This document shows, one piece after another, positions 2,461 to 42,655 of a stretch of DNA of 64,000 bases. The first letter of the stretch is position 1. Each line of letters starts with the position of its first letter. The stretch comes from a virus (Duplodnaviria; Caudoviricetes): IMG/VR virus record IMGVR_UViG_3300042569_000831, positions 2,008 to 66,007 of that record. One strand, 5' to 3'. The notes under the pieces were generated by a model, which was given only the letters and a program-made list of their open reading frames with translations, searched no databases and was not told where the DNA came from. The position numbers and the translations under genes were made by a program.

Positions 2461-5400
2461 TGGCAATAACAAAAAAAATATTATTAGGTGGTATTAACTC
2501 TGACGATGTAGAGCATATTATAGATACGAAAGATTATCTTAATGCGCTTAATATGAGATTTATTACCAACGAGAACGGCAAGGCCGGTAAGATGTCTGCT
2601 GTAGAAGGTACCGTTATGAAGAATGCTTTGTTCAACGGGGCTACTACTATTCCATTTGTACTACCTGCCGGGACCAATACTACCATTGGTGTTGTTGAGG
2701 ATTTCAGAAGAAACAGAGTAATATTTTTCAATAAGAACTCTAATAATAACAACGGCATATACTGCTACGATTATTTAGCAAATGTTGTTTATAAGGTTGT
2801 TGACTACTCTCAGGTTGTTGGAGGCTTGGAGTTCGGGAGTGATATACATTCGTGTGCAATTATGGGCGATGTGGTGTATTGGACTGATGGTGATACGCCT
2901 CAGAAAAAAATAAACATAGAAGCAGGTATTAAGGGTAATCATCCTTCTTACGTTTCCGATTATGCTGCATATACTTTCCCTATGGCGGCTAGTGTATTGG
3001 GTTTAGTTAGGAACCAACCTGCATACCCTTTATTGGCATCTAAGTCGAATGACGCTGCGTACTTAAATAATTTTATTAAAAACGAAGCATTTCAGTTTTG
3101 CTACAGATTTGTTTACAGGGATTTTGAAGTAAGTACGTTTTCTCCTTTATCTATTTTGCTCAACTACAATCTAAGTGAAAGCAATCTAAATAGAATAGAA
3201 ATAAATATACCTACTGCTCAAAAAATACAACAAGACGTAATACGAATAGAGATAGCGGTTAAATACGTTTACGGTAATAAATACAGTATTGTAAAGGTTT
3301 GGGATTATTTAAAGGATGCAACTGCTATAGCTAATCATAATTCAGGAACCGCTACTGCGTTAAGGTATTATTTTTATAACGACACTATCGGGGTATCTGT
3401 AGATGATGCAACTGCTACCAAGCCATTTGACTCTATACCGTTATTATCTGAGACTTTGGAAATAGCTAAGGATAGATTATTCTTAGGAAATAATACTGAT
3501 GGATACGCTTCTCCTTCTACTACTTCCCTTTCCAATAGCTTGAACACAACGTCAGGAACTACTCCTACGGGGCAGTGGTATCAGATTCAGTATTACAAAA
3601 TATCTGACCCTACTGCTTACTATGCTTACGTTTTAAAAATAACTAATATTCTTGCGGAAGGATATTATATACCCTCTATAGGAGGTCCATTTGAAAATAC
3701 TCCGCTACCTACTAGTGTGGACTTTAATACTTATATTAGAATTGCTACTGATGAAGATAGCCTTAGGAATTATGTAGATGGTGGTCTTGGTGGTATTAAA
3801 GCTACTGCGGTAATATCTGTAACACCTTACACTGCTACGATTACAAATGCCCCGTCATCATCGGGATTGGTAGGCAAGACAGTATTTAAGAGCGATTCTT
3901 ATTATAAATTAGGCGTAGTTTTCTACGATGAAGCGGGAAGAAAATGCGGCGTTGTGACTAACGATACTGCTAGTACTAAGGCTGTAATACCTGATAGAAA
4001 TTATGCTTCTATTACTTATACAGAGAGTGTAAATTGGACATTATCTAACGCATCCTCTGCTATAGAAATTCCTGATTGGGCTAGGTATTACGGAATAGTA
4101 ATGACTAAGTGTTTGAGAACTAATTTCTTTATGCAGGCACGGGCTGATTATGTTGGGTATATTTCTAAGGATTCTACTACCGGAGAGTTTCAAGCGCCGG
4201 TAACTTCTTATAGTGCTACTGCTTATGGGATAGTAGTACAGGCTAAGAGTCTTAATAGTTTTGGGATAGGGTATGCTTACCAAGCAGGAGATATTTTAAA
4301 ATTGTATAAGTCGGGCGTTACTACCGCTCCATTATCACTTGCTGTTAAAGGAACTTACTCCGACTATGTTATTGTAGAACTTAAGGATATAGGATTAACG
4401 GGATCTACAAATTACTTCTACGAGTTATATACCCCGTACACTTTAAGTTTTAACGAGTATTATTACGAAACCGGGAATACTTATTTGGTGAATAATCCGG
4501 GAACTCCTAGTAGGTCTTATAGTTCGTTAACCGGAACTATAACCGGTGACGTGACTATTCTTCAAAGAAACACTTCTTATTTAGTTGAGGCGATGTCTCC
4601 TAATGATACTTATTGGAAGAATTGGATAACTAATGCGGGAAGAGTTAACATTGTAAACGCAGGGAAACAGACTAAAAAAAGAACGTCTGTCTATTTTAGT
4701 GATGTTAGGATACTTGGTACAGAGTCAAACGGACTAAGTTCTTTTGACGCCCTGAATCAATACGAATTACCTTACGAATTATCGGCCGTTAGAAAGCTTC
4801 AATTAGTAAACAAAGTAGAAACGGAAGGTACTTTAATGTTGGCTATAGGAGAGAACGAAACCGCTGTTATGTACTTGGGCGAGACTCAGGTGTTTGACAA
4901 TACCGGGTCTTCATTCTTAGCTAAGAGTTCGGGGGTGATAGGTAATGTAAATGTTCTTAGGGGAAGTTACGGAACTATAAATCCTGAGAGTGTTTGCAGG
5001 TTTGCCGGAAGTGTTTATTGGTTTGATGCTAATAAGGGCTGCATGGTAGCCTTTAACGAAAGCGGGTTGAATAATATTTCTGACATGAAAATGTTTAACC
5101 ATTGGAAGAAGGTGGGCCAAGATATTTTAGCTAACGGTAAAAAGATATACGGAGGAATAGATCCTTACAACGGTGAAGTGCTAATGTATGCGCCTTACAA
5201 ATCAGTTATACCTGTAGGGATTATATTGAGCGATACTATTGTTAGTAGTACTAATCATTCGTACTCGGCCGGAAGCGGGTCAATAACACTGACATTAACT
5301 TCTGATTGCACTTATACTATATCTTCTACCAACAACGTTACCGTAACTTATGCCGGGGAAACTATTACAAATGCCGGCAGTTCGGGGGTGTTCGTGGCAA

Positions 5401-38774: not shown

Positions 38775-38906
38775 TTAGCATCCTAGCCCGTCACAACTGC
38801 AATTTCCATCACATTCAATATGAAGCGGCATATTGCAATAATGTTTATTATAATCAATTGGCAAATTTATTAGCAATATTGCTAATATTAAAAGTAATTT
38901 TTTCAT
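38775..38906 (-). CDS. small secreted Cys-rich peptide (43 aa)
   Basis: Leader followed by MKKLLLILAILL and a C-terminal CDGNCSCDGLGC. Confidence 0.55.
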   Translation of the reverse strand: MKKLLLILAILLINLPIDYNKHYCNMPLHIECDGNCSCDGLGC

Positions 38907-38979
38907 GTTTTTGAGGTTTTGTTGAGGAACTGCCCGTGTATTGATCACGTTAACATCTACATGTTGGCAGCTCGGGGGA

Positions 38980-39297
38980 TTAATAGTTAATAAAGTACTC
39001 TTCATTATAAGAATACCTTTCACCTACATAAGAGGGATTATAAACAAGATAGCCAACTTCATTAACCTTTATGGCAATTGCATCCTGCTCTAAGGTAACA
39101 CATAAACGCTCTACCATAATAATAATGTCCGATAAGTCCCAATTTTCAGTTATTCTACTAACTACAGTTGGTTCAACTGCTTCGCTCCATTGGCTATGGT
39201 CTAGTCTACTTTCAGCTAAAAACATTAAATTCAATATTCTGCTGCATTGCTCGAATGAATACGGGTTGTTATTTAGCCCGATGTTTAGTTGGATCAT
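38980..39297 (-). CDS. first gene of the early operon, hypothetical
   Basis: 'NIGL...EPTVV...LCVTLEQDAIA'; immediately downstream of the hammerhead. Confidence 0.65.
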   Translation of the reverse strand: MIQLNIGLNNNPYSFEQCSRILNLMFLAESRLDHSQWSEAVEPTVVSRITENWDLSDIIIMVERLCVTLEQDAIAIKVNEVGYLVYNPSYVGERYSYNEEYFINY

Positions 39298-39309
39298 TTT
39301 GTTTGTTTT

Positions 39310-39362
39310 GAGGTTTCGCTATTCTGTAGCTCATCAGTATAGATAACACATCTATAAACCTC
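39310..39362 (-). ncRNA. type III hammerhead ribozyme
   Basis: GAGG-U-U / stem I UAUAGAU-GUGUU-AUCUAUA / CUGAUGA / stem II GCUA-CAGAA-UAGC / GAAA-CCUC; complete core, GUU cleavage triplet. Confidence 0.9.
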
Positions 39363-39562
39363 TACGACCTTTTTAGCCTCGTGACTACGCCTATATTATA
39401 ACGATAAATCAGAAATAACAGCGAAAGGAAGACTACTAATTAACGCATGTAAGGGGTAAGACGGGTAAACTATTGTTTATTTGTGGGTTGCAATCGTGTA
39501 GGATGCAGTGCCGATGTCCGTACTTAACGGCGGTGTACCGTGTCGCATGTGTAACTTTCGTG

Positions 39563-39579
39563 CCAATATTTCAGAGAAC
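39563..39579 (-). promoter_or_regulatory. boxA-like antitermination element
   Basis: GTTCTCTGAAATATT about 30 nt downstream of the promoter; resembles rrn boxA. Confidence 0.4.
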
Positions 39580-39609
39580 TCGAAAACGATTCGTTAACCG
39601 TTAACAATG

Positions 39610-39642
39610 CAAACATAAGGCGAATGTGAATATCAATCCAAA
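39610..39642 (-). promoter_or_regulatory. Bacteroidota primary-sigma promoter of the early operon
   Basis: TTTG-N21-TATGTTTG (-33/-7 consensus TTTG...TAnnTTTG). Confidence 0.75.
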
Positions 39643-39979
39643 TTTATTTTTAAAAAATGCCAATTAAAGTTTTGTTAAAAGCCTGAAATGCAATGCAGTA
39701 TTGAATTGTAGCCAAATGTTAAAGTTTTGTTAACGCTAATAAATGTGAATATAAATACTAGAAAACAATCAAAGTTTGACGGCTCGGGGGACTAATAGTG
39801 TAAAGGGATATATAAGACCAAATAAACAGTAAAATAGGCGCAAAACAATATAAATAAGCGCAAATAACGATTAAAGCAGAATAAACGCATTCAGGTACGA
39901 ATAAAAACCGTATAAACGATTCTGACAGCCTTTAAATGTTAAAATAGTGTTAAGTTTAGTTAAAGAAATGTTAAACGGG

Positions 39980-40303
39980 TTATAATCTGAAATTGATCAA
40001 ATAACGGTTAACACGATAAATAAATTCCCTACCTTCTGCCGTAACCGTATAAAAGTCTTTATCCTTTATAAGAAGATTATTTTCGGCTAAAGTGATTAAT
40101 CCTTCCCGTATAGTTCTGACTGTAAAGGTTAGAAAGTATTTGTCACATAGTCGGCCAACAATTGCAGCCGATATGTTGCCATGTATCCGCCTACATAGGT
40201 ATAATAAGGTTAGCTCAGATAAAGTAAGGTTTTTAACTTTCATCCTTTGCGAAGTTAATCGGACTGCTTCGGGAAATAGAAATAAATATTTATCAACTTT
40301 CAT
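39980..40303 (-). CDS. winged-helix transcriptional regulator
   Basis: 'LTLSELTLL...RTIREGLITLAENNLL....YTVTAEGR' wHTH pattern; isolated gene in the control region. Confidence 0.7.
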   Translation of the reverse strand: MKVDKYLFLFPEAVRLTSQRMKVKNLTLSELTLLYLCRRIHGNISAAIVGRLCDKYFLTFTVRTIREGLITLAENNLLIKDKDFYTVTAEGREFIYRVNRYLINFRL

Positions 40304-41706
40304 ATACAACAAATATATAGATTATTAGACTAATTGGAAAGGTTGCCGGTTCGGGGGTATACTTGTTACATAGAGAGAGAACAAAGCAATGAGATATATA
40401 GGAGGGTAAGAAAGGATTAAAACATGGATTAATATATAAGGAGAAAGGATGGCATATTGAAATAAGGATGAATAGATGGCAAAGTATTAATTGAAAAGTA
40501 GATGGATTGATATATTATGGAAGGTATTAAGGACTGAAATAAGGAGGAGCTAATATGTTGGAAAAGGTATTGAATGATGAAAAGTAGGGGGGTTATTGCT
40601 CTTTTACGTCCAATATTGGCGTACAAATGTCAACTAAAAACCGTATAAGCTATTCTCAGCGCCTTCATTCGCTACTTTTGCCCCAATTTGCCCCAATATA
40701 TACCAATGGGATAATATATTTTTTATATATGTTTCCCTATATGAGGTAGTTTAGCACAGTTCAGCACAGTGTGTGTGTCACGGGTATAAACATAACACGC
40801 TATGTATCAACACATTACATACGCATATATACTAACAAGTCAGTAGTTAGCCGCCTGATTTTGGATTTTGGAATTGGAATTTGAGACCCCACTCGGTCGC
40901 TCGTTCGCAGTTCGCATACGGACTCATGTGTACCCGATATATGATATAACCCCCTCTCTTCACCCTCACAAACCCCTTAATCGCCACGTTGGGACGTAGG
41001 ATTTTGATTTGTCAAATACCACGACTTCTTGTTTGGCGTATTTCTTCATTACAGGCTGATTTAGACACTTTAATTTTAAAATGATACAATCACCCTCTTT
41101 CTCCCCTCCCCTCCTTAAACAGCCCCAAAATGGGCATTAATTAATATACCCACTTACAAACCCCATGTGGAGAAGTTTGTTTTATTAGTTCGGGGGTATT
41201 GGTTAAGTTTGCTTGTCAGTTTATGCGTCTTTTTCTCGATTCGGCTGATAGTAAGAAGTGATTAGAATGGGGCGGTAGTCAATCACAGGGGAGTGCTGAA
41301 TAATGAACCCTACTACCATGACAGAGGATATGTCATTAAGTTACATTAGAGTGTTGTAATTCCTAATATCAACACAGCCATAAGCGGTGGAGAGGAGACT
41401 CGAAACATATAGCAGAGGTTAGCACTGAATAGTTTAAACACTTGTTAGGGCTATTTGTGCTTTAACCACTGTACGATGAAGGAAAAGATCTGAAACATAT
41501 ATTTAGAATAGTAATTATAATTGTTAATATAATTATTAATTGTTTTCTTATATTTGCTTAACAGTACTAATTAATATACCATAAGAATTATTAATAAGTC
41601 ATTTTGGCTCGGGCTAGTTACCGGAGTTTTGCTTCGGTAACATTTTTAAATTATCATTTATAGTAAAAACGTCAGGTTAAACCTGATATTAATAATATAA
41701 AAAAAT

Positions 41707-41737
41707 TTTGTAGTTGTTTAATAAAACCCTATATTTG
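41707..41737 (+). promoter_or_regulatory. Bacteroidota promoter for the rightward arm
   Basis: TTTG-N19-TATATTTG. Confidence 0.7.
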
Positions 41738-41897
41738 TATCCGGTCAAATTTTTTTATCAGCCATGGGCAGCTACCTGAGTACGGGAATACTTCGGTAGC
41801 ATTTTAAAAATTAATTATATGAGACTTTAAATAAACTTATAGGACAGGGCGACTTGCTTAACAGTTAATTAACAGGCGAGTTGTCTGAGCAGTCCTT

Positions 41898-42053
41898 GGT
41901 CGGGTGGCGGAATGTAGGTACAAAGAGCAATAGTATGTGCTTACTTGGTAGACGCTAAGTTAGAATTGGTATTGGGAGATGCAGCGTGGAAACTGTACCG
42001 CCCGTCAGAAAAGCCGCTAACAACTATTACGGGTTCAAATCCTGTCTTGACCG
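41898..42053 (+). ncRNA. expanded tRNA-like RNA (156 nt)
   Basis: Acceptor GGTCGGG/CTTGACC, Leu-type D-arm TGGCGGAA...GGTAGACGC with an inserted hairpin, T-arm ACGGG-TTCAAAT-CCTGT, long insertion replacing the anticodon arm. Confidence 0.7.
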
Positions 42054-42127
42054 CTCCCATGCTGACAATAGCATTGGTAAATTCAACGGAAGTTGATGAC
42101 AGCCGGGAAAGCCCGGCACTTTTTATT

Positions 42128-42382
42128 ATGAAAAAGCACACTAAAATTTACTTTGACTACTTCGGCCACGGTGAGCAATCCTTCGTTCCGTGCGAGGTTT
42201 GTGGAATGCGTGCAAATGACATTCATCATATCGAAGCTCGGGGGATGGGTGGTAGTAAAGAAAAAGATAATATAGAAAACCTTCAAGCCTTGTGTAGACC
42301 ATGCCACATAAACTTTGGCGATAAAAAACAACACATGCAGTTTCTCCGTGATATTCACGAACTTCGATTGAAAGTGATTTAG
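42128..42382 (+). CDS. HNH endonuclease
   Basis: CEVC...DIHHI...NLQALCRPCH; start reassigned to ATG 42128. Confidence 0.9.
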   Translation: MKKHTKIYFDYFGHGEQSFVPCEVCGMRANDIHHIEARGMGGSKEKDNIENLQALCRPCHINFGDKKQHMQFLRDIHELRLKVI

Positions 42383-42426
42383 TATAATTTGATTTTTATT
42401 TATTAACTTTGCTTTAAAACAAAACC

Positions 42427-42639
42427 ATGACAAAAGAACAAGCCTTACAAGTATTACAAGTTTTCGTAGATTTTTCTTGGGAATGTTTCCGAGAGGAATA
42501 TGTATCATGCGATCTAAAGTCTATGTTGCTTGAAATAGAAGAACTAGATGTAACAGGATTTTTAGAACATCAAGATGGTGAGACAATATTAGACATCAAG
42601 AAACTAGCCGAAGCGGCATTAAATACTTTAAAGAATTAA
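42427..42639 (+). CDS. hypothetical protein
   Basis: ATG ORF with A-rich leader. Confidence 0.55.
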   Translation: MTKEQALQVLQVFVDFSWECFREEYVSCDLKSMLLEIEELDVTGFLEHQDGETILDIKKLAEAALNTLKN

Positions 42640-42655
42640 TAGTATATTTGCGTAT

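What the first reader, a model, noticed from the sequence alone, without database searches (positions are those of the whole stretch)
39310..39362. Canonical hammerhead ribozyme whose stem III sequesters the first early gene's leader
Seen: all core nucleotides (CUGAUGA, GAAA, GUU triplet) and three perfect stems are present, with predicted cleavage between 39357 and 39356. The 3' strand of stem III is the shared ACCUC leader, 12 nt from the ATG at 39297. Known: type III hammerheads occur in phage intergenic regions with unclear roles. Inference: self-cleavage separates a ~245-nt leader RNA from the mRNA, leaves a 5'-OH end and frees the translation leader.
Basis: partly seen in the sequence, partly recalled or inferred. 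Interest (0 to 1): 0.8.

Follow-up and report, generated by a model that had tools for sequence, protein, structure and literature searches.

The report
Hammerhead ribozyme heading a phage operon
A genuine, evolutionarily conserved self-cutting hammerhead RNA sits 12 bases in front of the first early gene of a lake-water phage, and dozens of related phages keep the same ribozyme at the same distance from a start codon, which gives a testable job to phage hammerheads.

Summary
Window 39362-39310 (minus strand) has every hammerhead core nucleotide and three perfect helices in type III topology. Predicted cleavage follows U17, between 39357 and 39356. None of 400 composition-matched simulations gave such a motif.

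It belongs to a phage-borne type III family. A covariance model built from 26 other phage sequences hits it at 66.2 bits (E 3.7e-16). In the 27-sequence alignment, 14 of 17 base pairs show compensatory changes. Rfam 15 does not detect it (17.7 bits; cut-off 48.5).

- The stem III 3' strand ACCUC is a leader shared by seven early genes.
- A Bacteroidetes-type promoter about 250 nt upstream is conserved in relatives.
- In 45 of 58 unique relatives the ribozyme ends 12-14 nt before a start codon; 2.8% of random positions do.

Most likely, self-cleavage removes the long leader, leaves a 5'-OH mRNA and unpairs positions -20 to -13 for ribosome loading in a host without Shine-Dalgarno sites. Cleavage itself is untested.

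Hammerheads in phages, including one 13 nt before a first early gene, were described in 2011. This scan has noted many phage hammerheads on other DNA. This is a new member of a known kind, with an unusually clear architecture.

The parts
39310..39362 (-). Type III hammerhead ribozyme, complete (53 nt)
   Evidence: Sequence. Only descriptor hit in the window. Family model R1, built without the window: 66.2 bits, E 3.7e-16. Single copy in the whole 66-kb record.
39356..39357 (-). Predicted self-cleavage site, 3' of U17 (39357) and 5' of N1.1 (39356)
   Evidence: Position relative to the core. In strain variants the only listed change inside the ribozyme is U17 to A17, which is an allowed H.
39358..39362 (-). 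Stem III 5' strand GAGGU; it leaves with the upstream fragment after cleavage
   Evidence: Pairs with 39314-39310. Stem III covaries in the family.
39338..39356 (-). Stem I hairpin (7 bp) with loop I GUGUU
   Evidence: All 7 stem I pairs are 100% paired across 27 family sequences, and 6 of 7 show compensatory change.
39331..39337 (-). Catalytic core CUGAUGA (C3-A9)
   Evidence: Invariant in the family alignment, though partly fixed by the search pattern.
39318..39330 (-). Stem II (4 bp) with loop II CAGAA
   Evidence: Three of 4 pairs show compensatory change. The identical stem II occurs in L049, L053, L055 and L058.
39310..39317 (-). Core GAA, then stem III 3' strand ACCUC (A15.1 to 15.5); ACCUC is also the leader motif shared by the early genes
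39298..39309 (-). 12-nt A-rich, Shine-Dalgarno-less translation leader
   Evidence: It fits the 12-14 nt spacing seen in 45 of 58 unique relatives.
38980..39297 (-). First ORF of the leftward (early, then replication) block: 105 aa, no PHROG family
   Evidence: Homologues are listed. The 29%-identical homologue in L038 also has the ribozyme 13 nt upstream.
39610..39642 (-). Candidate Bacteroidetes-type promoter: -33 TTTG at 39642-39639 and -7 TATGTTTG at 39617-39610
   Evidence: Pattern match. An extended box is conserved upstream of the ribozyme in 13 loci. The two-box pattern occurs in 22 of 59 upstream regions against 2.3% of random 500-nt windows. The consensus itself is recalled, not taken from a call.
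39363..39604 (-). ORF-less leader of about 245 nt that would be cut off; it contains the block GTTCTCTGAAATATT at 39579-39565
   Evidence: No minus-strand ORF of 40 aa or more. The fold is no more stable than shuffles (z +2.1). The block is shared with L073 and L085, and partly with L038.

Best explanation
This is an active type III hammerhead ribozyme in the 5' untranslated region of the phage's leftward early operon.

Transcription probably starts about 250 nt upstream, at a Bacteroidetes-type promoter. As the ribozyme emerges it folds and cuts after U17 (39357). [quoted passage not shown] The mRNA then begins with a 5'-hydroxyl, the ribozyme body (stem I and stem II hairpins) and about 20 unpaired, A-rich nucleotides (GAA, ACCUC and the 12-nt leader) before the AUG.

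The cut therefore does three things:
- It uncouples the mRNA from whatever the leader does.
- It gives the mRNA a defined 5' end without triphosphate or monophosphate.
- It unpairs -20 to -13, the outer part of the zone that must be unstructured for initiation in hosts that do not use Shine-Dalgarno pairing.

What is shown: the motif, its family, the covariation, the fixed spacing to start codons and the conserved promoter box. What is inferred: cleavage itself, the transcription start, and the effects on stability and translation.

The confidence of 0.65 is for the whole statement. That this is a genuine hammerhead of a conserved family I put at about 0.93.
For: Identity of the motif:
- All core nucleotides and three perfect helices are present.
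- It passes the acceptance rules that Perreault et al. 2011 state for hammerhead hits: the core is intact and there is no mispair next to the core (passage read).
- 0 of 400 simulations reach the observed stem lengths.

Family:
- A loop I plus core pattern found 55 IMG/VR loci, of which 39 carry complete type III hammerheads.
- A core plus loop II pattern found 67 loci, of which 66 are complete.
- In 27 distinct sequences, 95.4% of cells pair against 69.0% in shuffles (0 of 500 shuffles reach it), and 14 of 17 pairs show double-sided changes.
- Model R1, built without the window, hits the window at 66.2 bits. The next hit scores 14.8 bits.

Strain variants:
- Lake-metagenome contigs differ by about 5% in the flanks: 22 differences in 405 nt and 29 in 603 nt.
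- Inside the ribozyme the only listed change is U17 to A17.

Orthology: L038 has the same promoter type, leader, ribozyme and a 13-nt spacer before a 29%-identical homologue of the first gene. All three helices differ in sequence but still pair.

Spacing and context:
- The end of stem III lies 12-14 nt from a start codon in 49 of 64 loci and in 45 of 58 unique sequences. Of random positions, 2.8% do so.
- Leaders are 81% A+T, and 9 of 58 carry a Shine-Dalgarno-like 4-mer.
- The downstream genes are diverse: 65 proteins fall in 45 clusters. The module therefore goes with a position, not with a gene.
- 38 of 58 scorable loci have more than 300 nt without an ORF of 60 aa or more before the ribozyme.

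Promoter.

Host-type translation: F. johnsoniae lacks Shine-Dalgarno use and shows low structure from -20 to +20 (abstract, section 17).

Chemistry of the ends: a passage in PMC10250234.

Precedent: in haloviruses HF1 and HF2 a hammerhead lies 13 nt before the first early gene, and the transcript's 5' end maps within 3 nt of the cleavage site (passage read).
Against: - No cleavage, RNA end or expression data exist. No RNA run holds the region.
- Rfam Hammerhead_3 gives only 17.7 bits against a cut-off of 48.5. None of 14 family loci reaches any Rfam gathering score.
- The isolated 53-mer folds only modestly better than shuffles: z -1.8, with 12 of 200 shuffles as good. Its centroid lacks stems I and II.
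- Stem I has one G-C pair in seven. In the computed fold of the cleaved mRNA, stem I is replaced by long-range pairs, so a protective 5' hairpin is not secure.
- The loop I to loop II tertiary contact needed at physiological Mg2+ is not testable here.
- The transcription start is unmapped. A TATAAT lies at 39400-39395, only about 32 nt upstream of the ribozyme, although that stretch is the most variable among strains.
- One strain variant (run X6, record 18) carries about 242 extra bases between the ribozyme and this ATG. Adjacency to this particular gene is therefore not obligatory.
Confidence: 0.65

Rival explanations
1. The ribozyme's main job is upstream. It makes the 3' end of a functional leader RNA of about 250 nt, either an antitermination-type leader or a separate small RNA. 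The effect on the mRNA would be incidental.
For: A conserved promoter lies 120-370 nt upstream in 13 loci. Leader blocks are conserved within subgroups.
Against: The tight ruler runs to the downstream start codon, not to anything upstream: leaders vary from 110 to 300 nt. The window's leader is less structured than shuffles (z +2.1). Nine of 58 scorable loci have the ribozyme within 100 nt after an upstream same-strand ORF, with no room for such a leader.
Confidence: 0.15
2. Cleavage is conditional on temperature, Mg2+, a factor or transcription speed. It would time early-gene translation as a switch rather than acting constitutively.
For: Stem III sequesters part of the initiation zone until cleavage. 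Perreault et al. 2011 raise regulated cleavage for phage hammerheads (passage read).
Against: There is no aptamer-like insertion. The loops are short and the core is consensus, as in fast constitutive hammerheads. No ligand-related gene context was found.
Confidence: 0.08
3. The motif is a chance match or a decayed relic that no longer cuts.
For: It fails the Rfam gathering score. The thermodynamic z-score is modest. The scan covers very many windows, so rare chance motifs are expected somewhere.
Against: The family model gives E 3.7e-16. There is covariation, conservation among strains, an orthologous position in L038 and no deviation from the core.
Confidence: 0.04

Closest known systems
Type III hammerhead ribozymes (Rfam RF00008 Hammerhead_3)
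   Same: Same catalytic core, three helices, open helix III and closed helices I and II.
   Different: It scores 17.7 bits against a gathering score of 48.5, with an out-of-register alignment. This family's loops are GUGU(U) in loop I and CAGAA or AAAA in loop II. It is DNA-phage encoded, whereas a 2026 paper states that type III is typical of circular RNAs and type I of bacteria and phages (passage in PMC13725137).
Hammerheads of phages and prophages, including HHphage of haloviruses HF1/HF2 (Perreault et al. 2011, PMC3088659; passages read)
   Same: They flank single genes or short gene blocks in phage DNA. HHphage lies 13 nt before the start codon of the first early gene, and the mapped 5' end is within 3 nt of the cleavage site.
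   Different: HHphage is a variant that needs high salt and comes from an archaeal virus. Here the core is fully consensus, the host type is bacterial without Shine-Dalgarno use, and the 12-14 nt spacing is shown across 58 unique loci. I could not see that paper's supplementary alignments, which may already hold members of this family.
Type I hammerheads (weakly RAGATH-1-hammerhead-like) in relatives of this phage
   Same: They sit before homologues of the same 105-aa gene and its small neighbours (L002-L004, L006, L010, L011). In L094 they end 13-14 nt before the ATG.
   Different: The topology is circularly permuted. After cleavage a type I leaves only a 19-20 nt 5'-OH leader on the mRNA, whereas type III leaves the whole ribozyme body.
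Synthetic ribozyme insulators such as RiboJ (Lou et al. 2012, as described in PMC6993053; passages read)
   Same: A hammerhead placed between promoter and ribosome-binding region cuts off the variable 5' leader and leaves a structured 5' end that exposes the ribosome-binding site.
   Different: RiboJ is engineered and carries an added hairpin. The element here is natural, and its stem III strand is itself part of the leader.
Self-cleaving ribozymes used for translation initiation by RNA viruses (PMC13725137; passages read)
   Same: The ribozyme lies a few nucleotides upstream of an ORF start. In the example read there, the cleavage site is 7 nt upstream.
   Different: Those are eukaryotic RNA viruses with mostly type I hammerheads. 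That study set DNA bacteriophage hits aside.

Membership tests
Hammerhead ribozyme (class) | Conserved core C3 U4 G5 A6 N7 G8 A9, G12 A13 A14, A15.1-U16.1 and H17 (not G) | tested here: met
   All are present: CUGAUGA at 39337-39331, GAA at 39317-39315, A15.1 (39314) paired with U16.1 (39358), and U17 at 39357. The criteria are as stated in PMC3088659 (passage read).
Hammerhead ribozyme (class) | Three helices around the core, with no mispair next to the core (1.1-2.1, 10.1-11.1, 15.1-16.1) | tested here: met
   The pairs are U39356-A39338, G39330-C39318 and A39314-U39358. The stems are 7(8), 4 and 5 bp without mismatch.
Hammerhead ribozyme (class) | Helices supported by covariation among homologues | tested here: met
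   14 of 17 pairs show double-sided changes. 95.4% of cells pair against 69.0% in shuffles (0 of 500 reach it). Slid controls pair at 26-42%. Part of stem I, loop I and the core were fixed by the search pattern; stems II and III and four stem I pairs were free.
Hammerhead ribozyme (class) | Site-specific self-cleavage giving 2',3'-cyclic phosphate and 5'-OH ends | not testable with these tools
   No RNA data: no RNA holder is listed.
Hammerhead ribozyme (class) | Loop I to loop II tertiary contact for activity at low Mg2+ | tested here: inconclusive
   The last two A of loop II are invariant, and UGUGU of loop I is nearly invariant even in family members not selected by the pattern. However, CAGAA loops also occur with quite different loop I sequences, and no 3D test was possible.
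Type III topology | Helices I and II closed by loops, helix III open | tested here: met
   No type I or type II reading fits.
Rfam RF00008 Hammerhead_3 (model membership) | Bit score at or above the curated gathering score of 48.5 | tested here: not met
   17.7 bits, E 0.33 on 301 nt. There is nothing at gathering in the window or in 14 family loci. I file it under the ribozyme class, not under this Rfam model.
Phage type III family defined here (model R1) | Significant full-length match to a model built without the window | tested here: met
   66.2 bits, E 3.7e-16, model positions 1-54 of 54.
Phage type III family defined here (model R1) | Stem III ends 12-14 nt before a start codon on the same strand | tested here: met
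   The window has 12 nt. The family shows 12-14 nt in 45 of 58 unique sequences, against 2.8% of random positions.

The most novel reading that the evidence does not exclude
The hammerhead may be one of several interchangeable 'cistron-head' RNA modules in these phages.

- In the window, the first gene has the type III hammerhead. Each of six later genes has an unclassified three-way-junction RNA of about 48 nt, followed by the same ACCUC leader.
- In relative L094, a type III hammerhead, three type I hammerheads and three-way-junction elements stand in series in one operon.
- All of them would leave about 20 unpaired A-rich nucleotides before the AUG.

On this reading, RNA cutting at every cistron head is a licensing step for translation in hosts without Shine-Dalgarno use. 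The three-way junction would then be either a new self-cleaving class or a new RNase P/Z-type processing signal. The head ribozyme would also sever a boxA-like antitermination leader from the message.
Probability: 0.3. Interest if true: 0.75.

Novelty: new member of a known kind. Interest (0 to 1): 0.5.

Why it matters
Hammerheads have been known in phage DNA since 2011, but reviews still call their role undefined (PMC6765202, passage read). This locus and its family offer a concrete and unusually regular architecture: a host-type promoter, an ORF-less leader of 110-300 nt, a type III hammerhead, 12-14 A/U-rich nucleotides and then the AUG. It usually stands at the head of a block of small early genes, in phages whose hosts probably do not use Shine-Dalgarno pairing.

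This turns 'what are phage hammerheads for?' into a reporter experiment in Flavobacterium johnsoniae. It also supplies a natural counterpart of the synthetic RiboJ insulator. The family is missed by Rfam 15 at its curated thresholds, so routine annotation under-counts it.

Tried and rejected
Searches that led nowhere:
- GenBank phages, blastn 'distant', with 1.3 kb around the site: no match.
- The exact 28-mer of core, stem II and stem III in IMG/VR: no match.
The metagenome scan returned only relatives at 30-37% identity. Close-relative evidence therefore rests on contigs laid.
- No RNA holder is listed for the region, so expression and RNA ends could not be examined.

Readings considered and rejected:
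- Structured leader RNA: the 284-nt leader folds worse than shuffles (z +2.1).
The later leaders have no G before AAACCUC.
- Mini-ORF, with the GAGGU of stem III as a Shine-Dalgarno site for the AUG in loop I: the stem III sequence is not conserved in the family, so I take this as coincidence.
- TATAAT at 39400-39395 as the promoter: 39399-39419 is the most variable stretch among strains. Relatives conserve the two-box promoter further upstream. I consider it less likely, but it is not excluded.
- Long-range pairing of 39369-39364 with the start codon, seen in one minimum-energy fold: not conserved in relatives, so not pursued.
- Prokaryote genomes: the core plus loop II pattern gave 11 hits in 185,579 species genomes. 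Four are convincing complete type III hammerheads, all in Firmicutes or Oscillospiraceae MAGs, and one more is dubious. No host could be assigned this way.

Supplementary files of the papers were closed. Dataset S1 of PMC3088659 may already contain members of this family.

Full report
**What is there.** Read on the minus strand, window 39362-39310 spells a complete type III hammerhead:
- stem III 5' strand GAGGU
- U17 at 39357
- a 7-bp stem I (39356-39350 with 39344-39338) closed by loop GUGUU
- the core CUGAUGA (39337-39331)
- a 4-bp stem II with loop CAGAA
- GAA
- stem III 3' strand ACCUC (39314-39310)

Twelve A-rich nucleotides follow, and then the ATG at 39297 of a 105-aa ORF. The pairs next to the core (1.1-2.1, 10.1-11.1, 15.1-16.1) are all standard. 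The motif therefore passes the acceptance rules of Perreault et al. 2011 (passage read).

**Chance.** My descriptor scans find this as the only hammerhead of any topology in the window. In 400 composition-matched 64-kb simulations, 11 had a hit at minimal stems, 2 at 4/3/4 bp and none at 5/4/5 bp or at the observed lengths. The scan reads very many windows, so chance alone is not excluded by this figure. Comparative evidence was needed.

**Rfam.** Nothing but two tRNAs reaches a gathering score in the window. A permissive scan gives Hammerhead_3 at 17.7 bits (cut-off 48.5) with stem I deleted and stem III out of register. Fourteen family loci also give nothing at gathering.

**Family.** Homologues of the downstream protein led to distant relatives.
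- Several of these carry type I hammerheads before the homologous gene and its small neighbours: L002-L004, L006, L010 and L011.
- L016 carries a type III hammerhead with the same loop I. L009 carries a variant, and L007 a degenerate copy.
- A pattern made of loop I and the core found 55 IMG/VR loci, 39 with complete type III hammerheads.
- A pattern made only of the core and loop II found 67 loci, 66 of them complete.
- In 27 distinct sequences including the window (alignment A2), 95.4% of pair cells are standard pairs against 69.0% in shuffles. No shuffle of 500 reaches the observed value on any of the five measures.
- 14 of 17 pairs show changes on both sides, and sliding the partners drops pairing to 26-42%.
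- A covariance model built from the 26 non-window sequences hits the window at 39363-39309 with 66.2 bits and E 3.7e-16. The next hit scores 14.8 bits.
- The 66-kb record holds one copy.

**Close relatives.** Contigs from four lake-metagenome runs were laid on 38900-39900. Variants about 5% divergent in the flanks show one listed change inside the 53 nt, at 39357. It turns U17 into A17, which is an allowed cleavage-site nucleotide and the commonest one in the family. The table was cut ('32 more not shown'), so weaker variants may exist. One contig (run X6, record 18) has about 242 extra bases between the ribozyme and the ATG. Other contigs in that run match only the ribozyme core and then diverge; they are other family members in the same water.

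**Architecture.**
- The gene block to the left of the ribozyme runs from small ORFs of unknown function to an integrase, a RecE-like exonuclease and a primase/helicase. The rightward block from 42656 holds terminase, portal and structural genes. This ORF is therefore the first of the leftward block.
- ACCUC followed by an A-rich run and ATG precedes seven minus-strand ORFs.
- In the family, the end of stem III lies 12-14 nt from a start codon in 49 of 64 loci with a scorable ORF and in 45 of 58 unique sequences. Of 26,800 random positions in the same loci, 2.8% do so.
- Leaders are 81% A+T and rarely Shine-Dalgarno-like (9 of 58).
- The genes served are diverse: 65 proteins in 45 clusters.
- The window's protein clusters with that of L038 (29% identity). 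L038 has the ribozyme 13 nt upstream with all three helices re-written.
- In 38 of 58 scorable loci, more than 300 nt without an ORF of 60 aa or more precede the ribozyme.

**Promoter and leader.**
- A two-box pattern of the Bacteroidetes type lies at 39642-39610. The consensus is recalled, not taken from a call.
- The same pattern occurs within 500 nt upstream of the ribozyme in 22 of 59 loci, against 2.3% of random 500-nt windows.
- An extended box occurs exactly once per locus in 13 loci, always on the ribozyme's strand and 120-370 nt upstream.
- The leader has no ORF and no excess structure.
- It shares one 15-nt block with L073 and L085. I did not test that resemblance.

- In type III topology the whole ribozyme body stays on the mRNA, and only GAGGU plus U17 leaves with the leader.
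- Before cleavage, -17 to -13 are paired. After release of the 5-6-bp helix, about 20 nt before the AUG are free.
- Computed unpaired probability at -20 to -13 rises from 0.18 to 0.72. This follows from the model and is not independent evidence.
- In F. johnsoniae, initiation is tuned by structure, with a low-structure zone from -20 to +20 and a favourable A at -3. The window has A at -3.
- In L094, three type I hammerheads end 13-14 nt before their ATGs and would leave 19-20-nt 5'-OH leaders.
- Both topologies therefore mask about 6 nt of the same zone until they cut. This supports the unmasking idea, but by inference only.
- The protective value of the 5' end is less secure. Stem I is A-U rich and is not kept in the computed fold of the cleaved RNA.

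**Comparison with what is known.**
- Hammerheads near phage genes, clusters flanking single genes, and a hammerhead 13 nt before the first early gene of haloviruses HF1 and HF2 with a mapped 5' end were described in 2011.
- A 2019 review still calls the role undefined.
- A 2026 paper on RNA viruses proposes ribozymes for translation initiation, but it set DNA phage hits aside and describes phage hammerheads as usually type I.
- My four literature searches returned no paper describing a fixed 12-14 nt spacing for a type III family in DNA phages. Supplements were closed and subscription journals are not covered, so this is not proof of absence.
- This scan has many earlier notes of hammerheads in phage operons on other DNA.

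**Verdict.** This is a real hammerhead and a new member of a known kind. It is of moderate interest because the family-wide regularity makes the function testable.

Noticed in passing
window 38771-38724, 38359-38312, 38009-37962, 37617-37570, 37352-37305, 36663-36616 (minus strand): Six copies of a three-way-junction RNA of about 48 nt. A covarying outer stem encloses a CGG-UUWAG-CCG hairpin and a 3-bp hairpin with a T-loop-like UUCRAU loop. Each lies about 20 nt before an early-gene ATG, and five of the six are followed by the ACCUC leader. No Rfam family matches even at E up to 10. Model R2 finds the sixth copy (47.5 bits) and one copy in another phage, L094 6312-6359 (39.7 bits). It stands where relatives have type I hammerheads, so it may be a processing signal or a new ribozyme.
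   Followed up: partly
L094 3857-6810 (plus strand): One operon of small genes carries in series a type III hammerhead at its head, three type I hammerheads (4118-4169, 4562-4613, 4961-5010) and at least three three-way-junction-type elements. One of these elements is followed by a leader almost identical to the window's.
   Followed up: partly
window 39298-39304, seen in run X6 record 18: A strain variant has about 242 extra bases between the hammerhead and the ATG, with a 7-base overlap at the junction. This suggests gain or loss of a small gene cassette by recombination between the repeated leaders. The inserted sequence could not be read.
   Followed up: no
window 39565-39579 (minus strand): The 15-nt block GTTCTCTGAAATATT in the cut-off leader is shared with L073 and L085, and partly with L038, about 50 nt after the conserved promoter box. 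If it loads antitermination factors, the hammerhead would sever it from the message.
   Followed up: partly
L018 4480-4506, L068 (three sites), L064 11250-11280: In members of the family that lie between cistrons, a G+C-rich hairpin directly precedes the hammerhead. After cleavage the upstream mRNA would therefore end in a hairpin plus a few nucleotides, a possible 3'-end stabiliser.
   Followed up: no
window 39363-42655: About 3.3 kb between the divergent gene blocks have few ORFs and several short direct and inverted repeats. One example is TTAAAGTTTTGTTAA, twice at 39664 and 39719.
   Followed up: no
L127 58-82 and L131 4033-4057: Two contigs of one MAG carry a type I-looking hammerhead with a very short helix III next to AT dinucleotide repeats. 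They look more like eukaryotic satellite-type hammerheads, which raises possible contamination of that bin.
   Followed up: no
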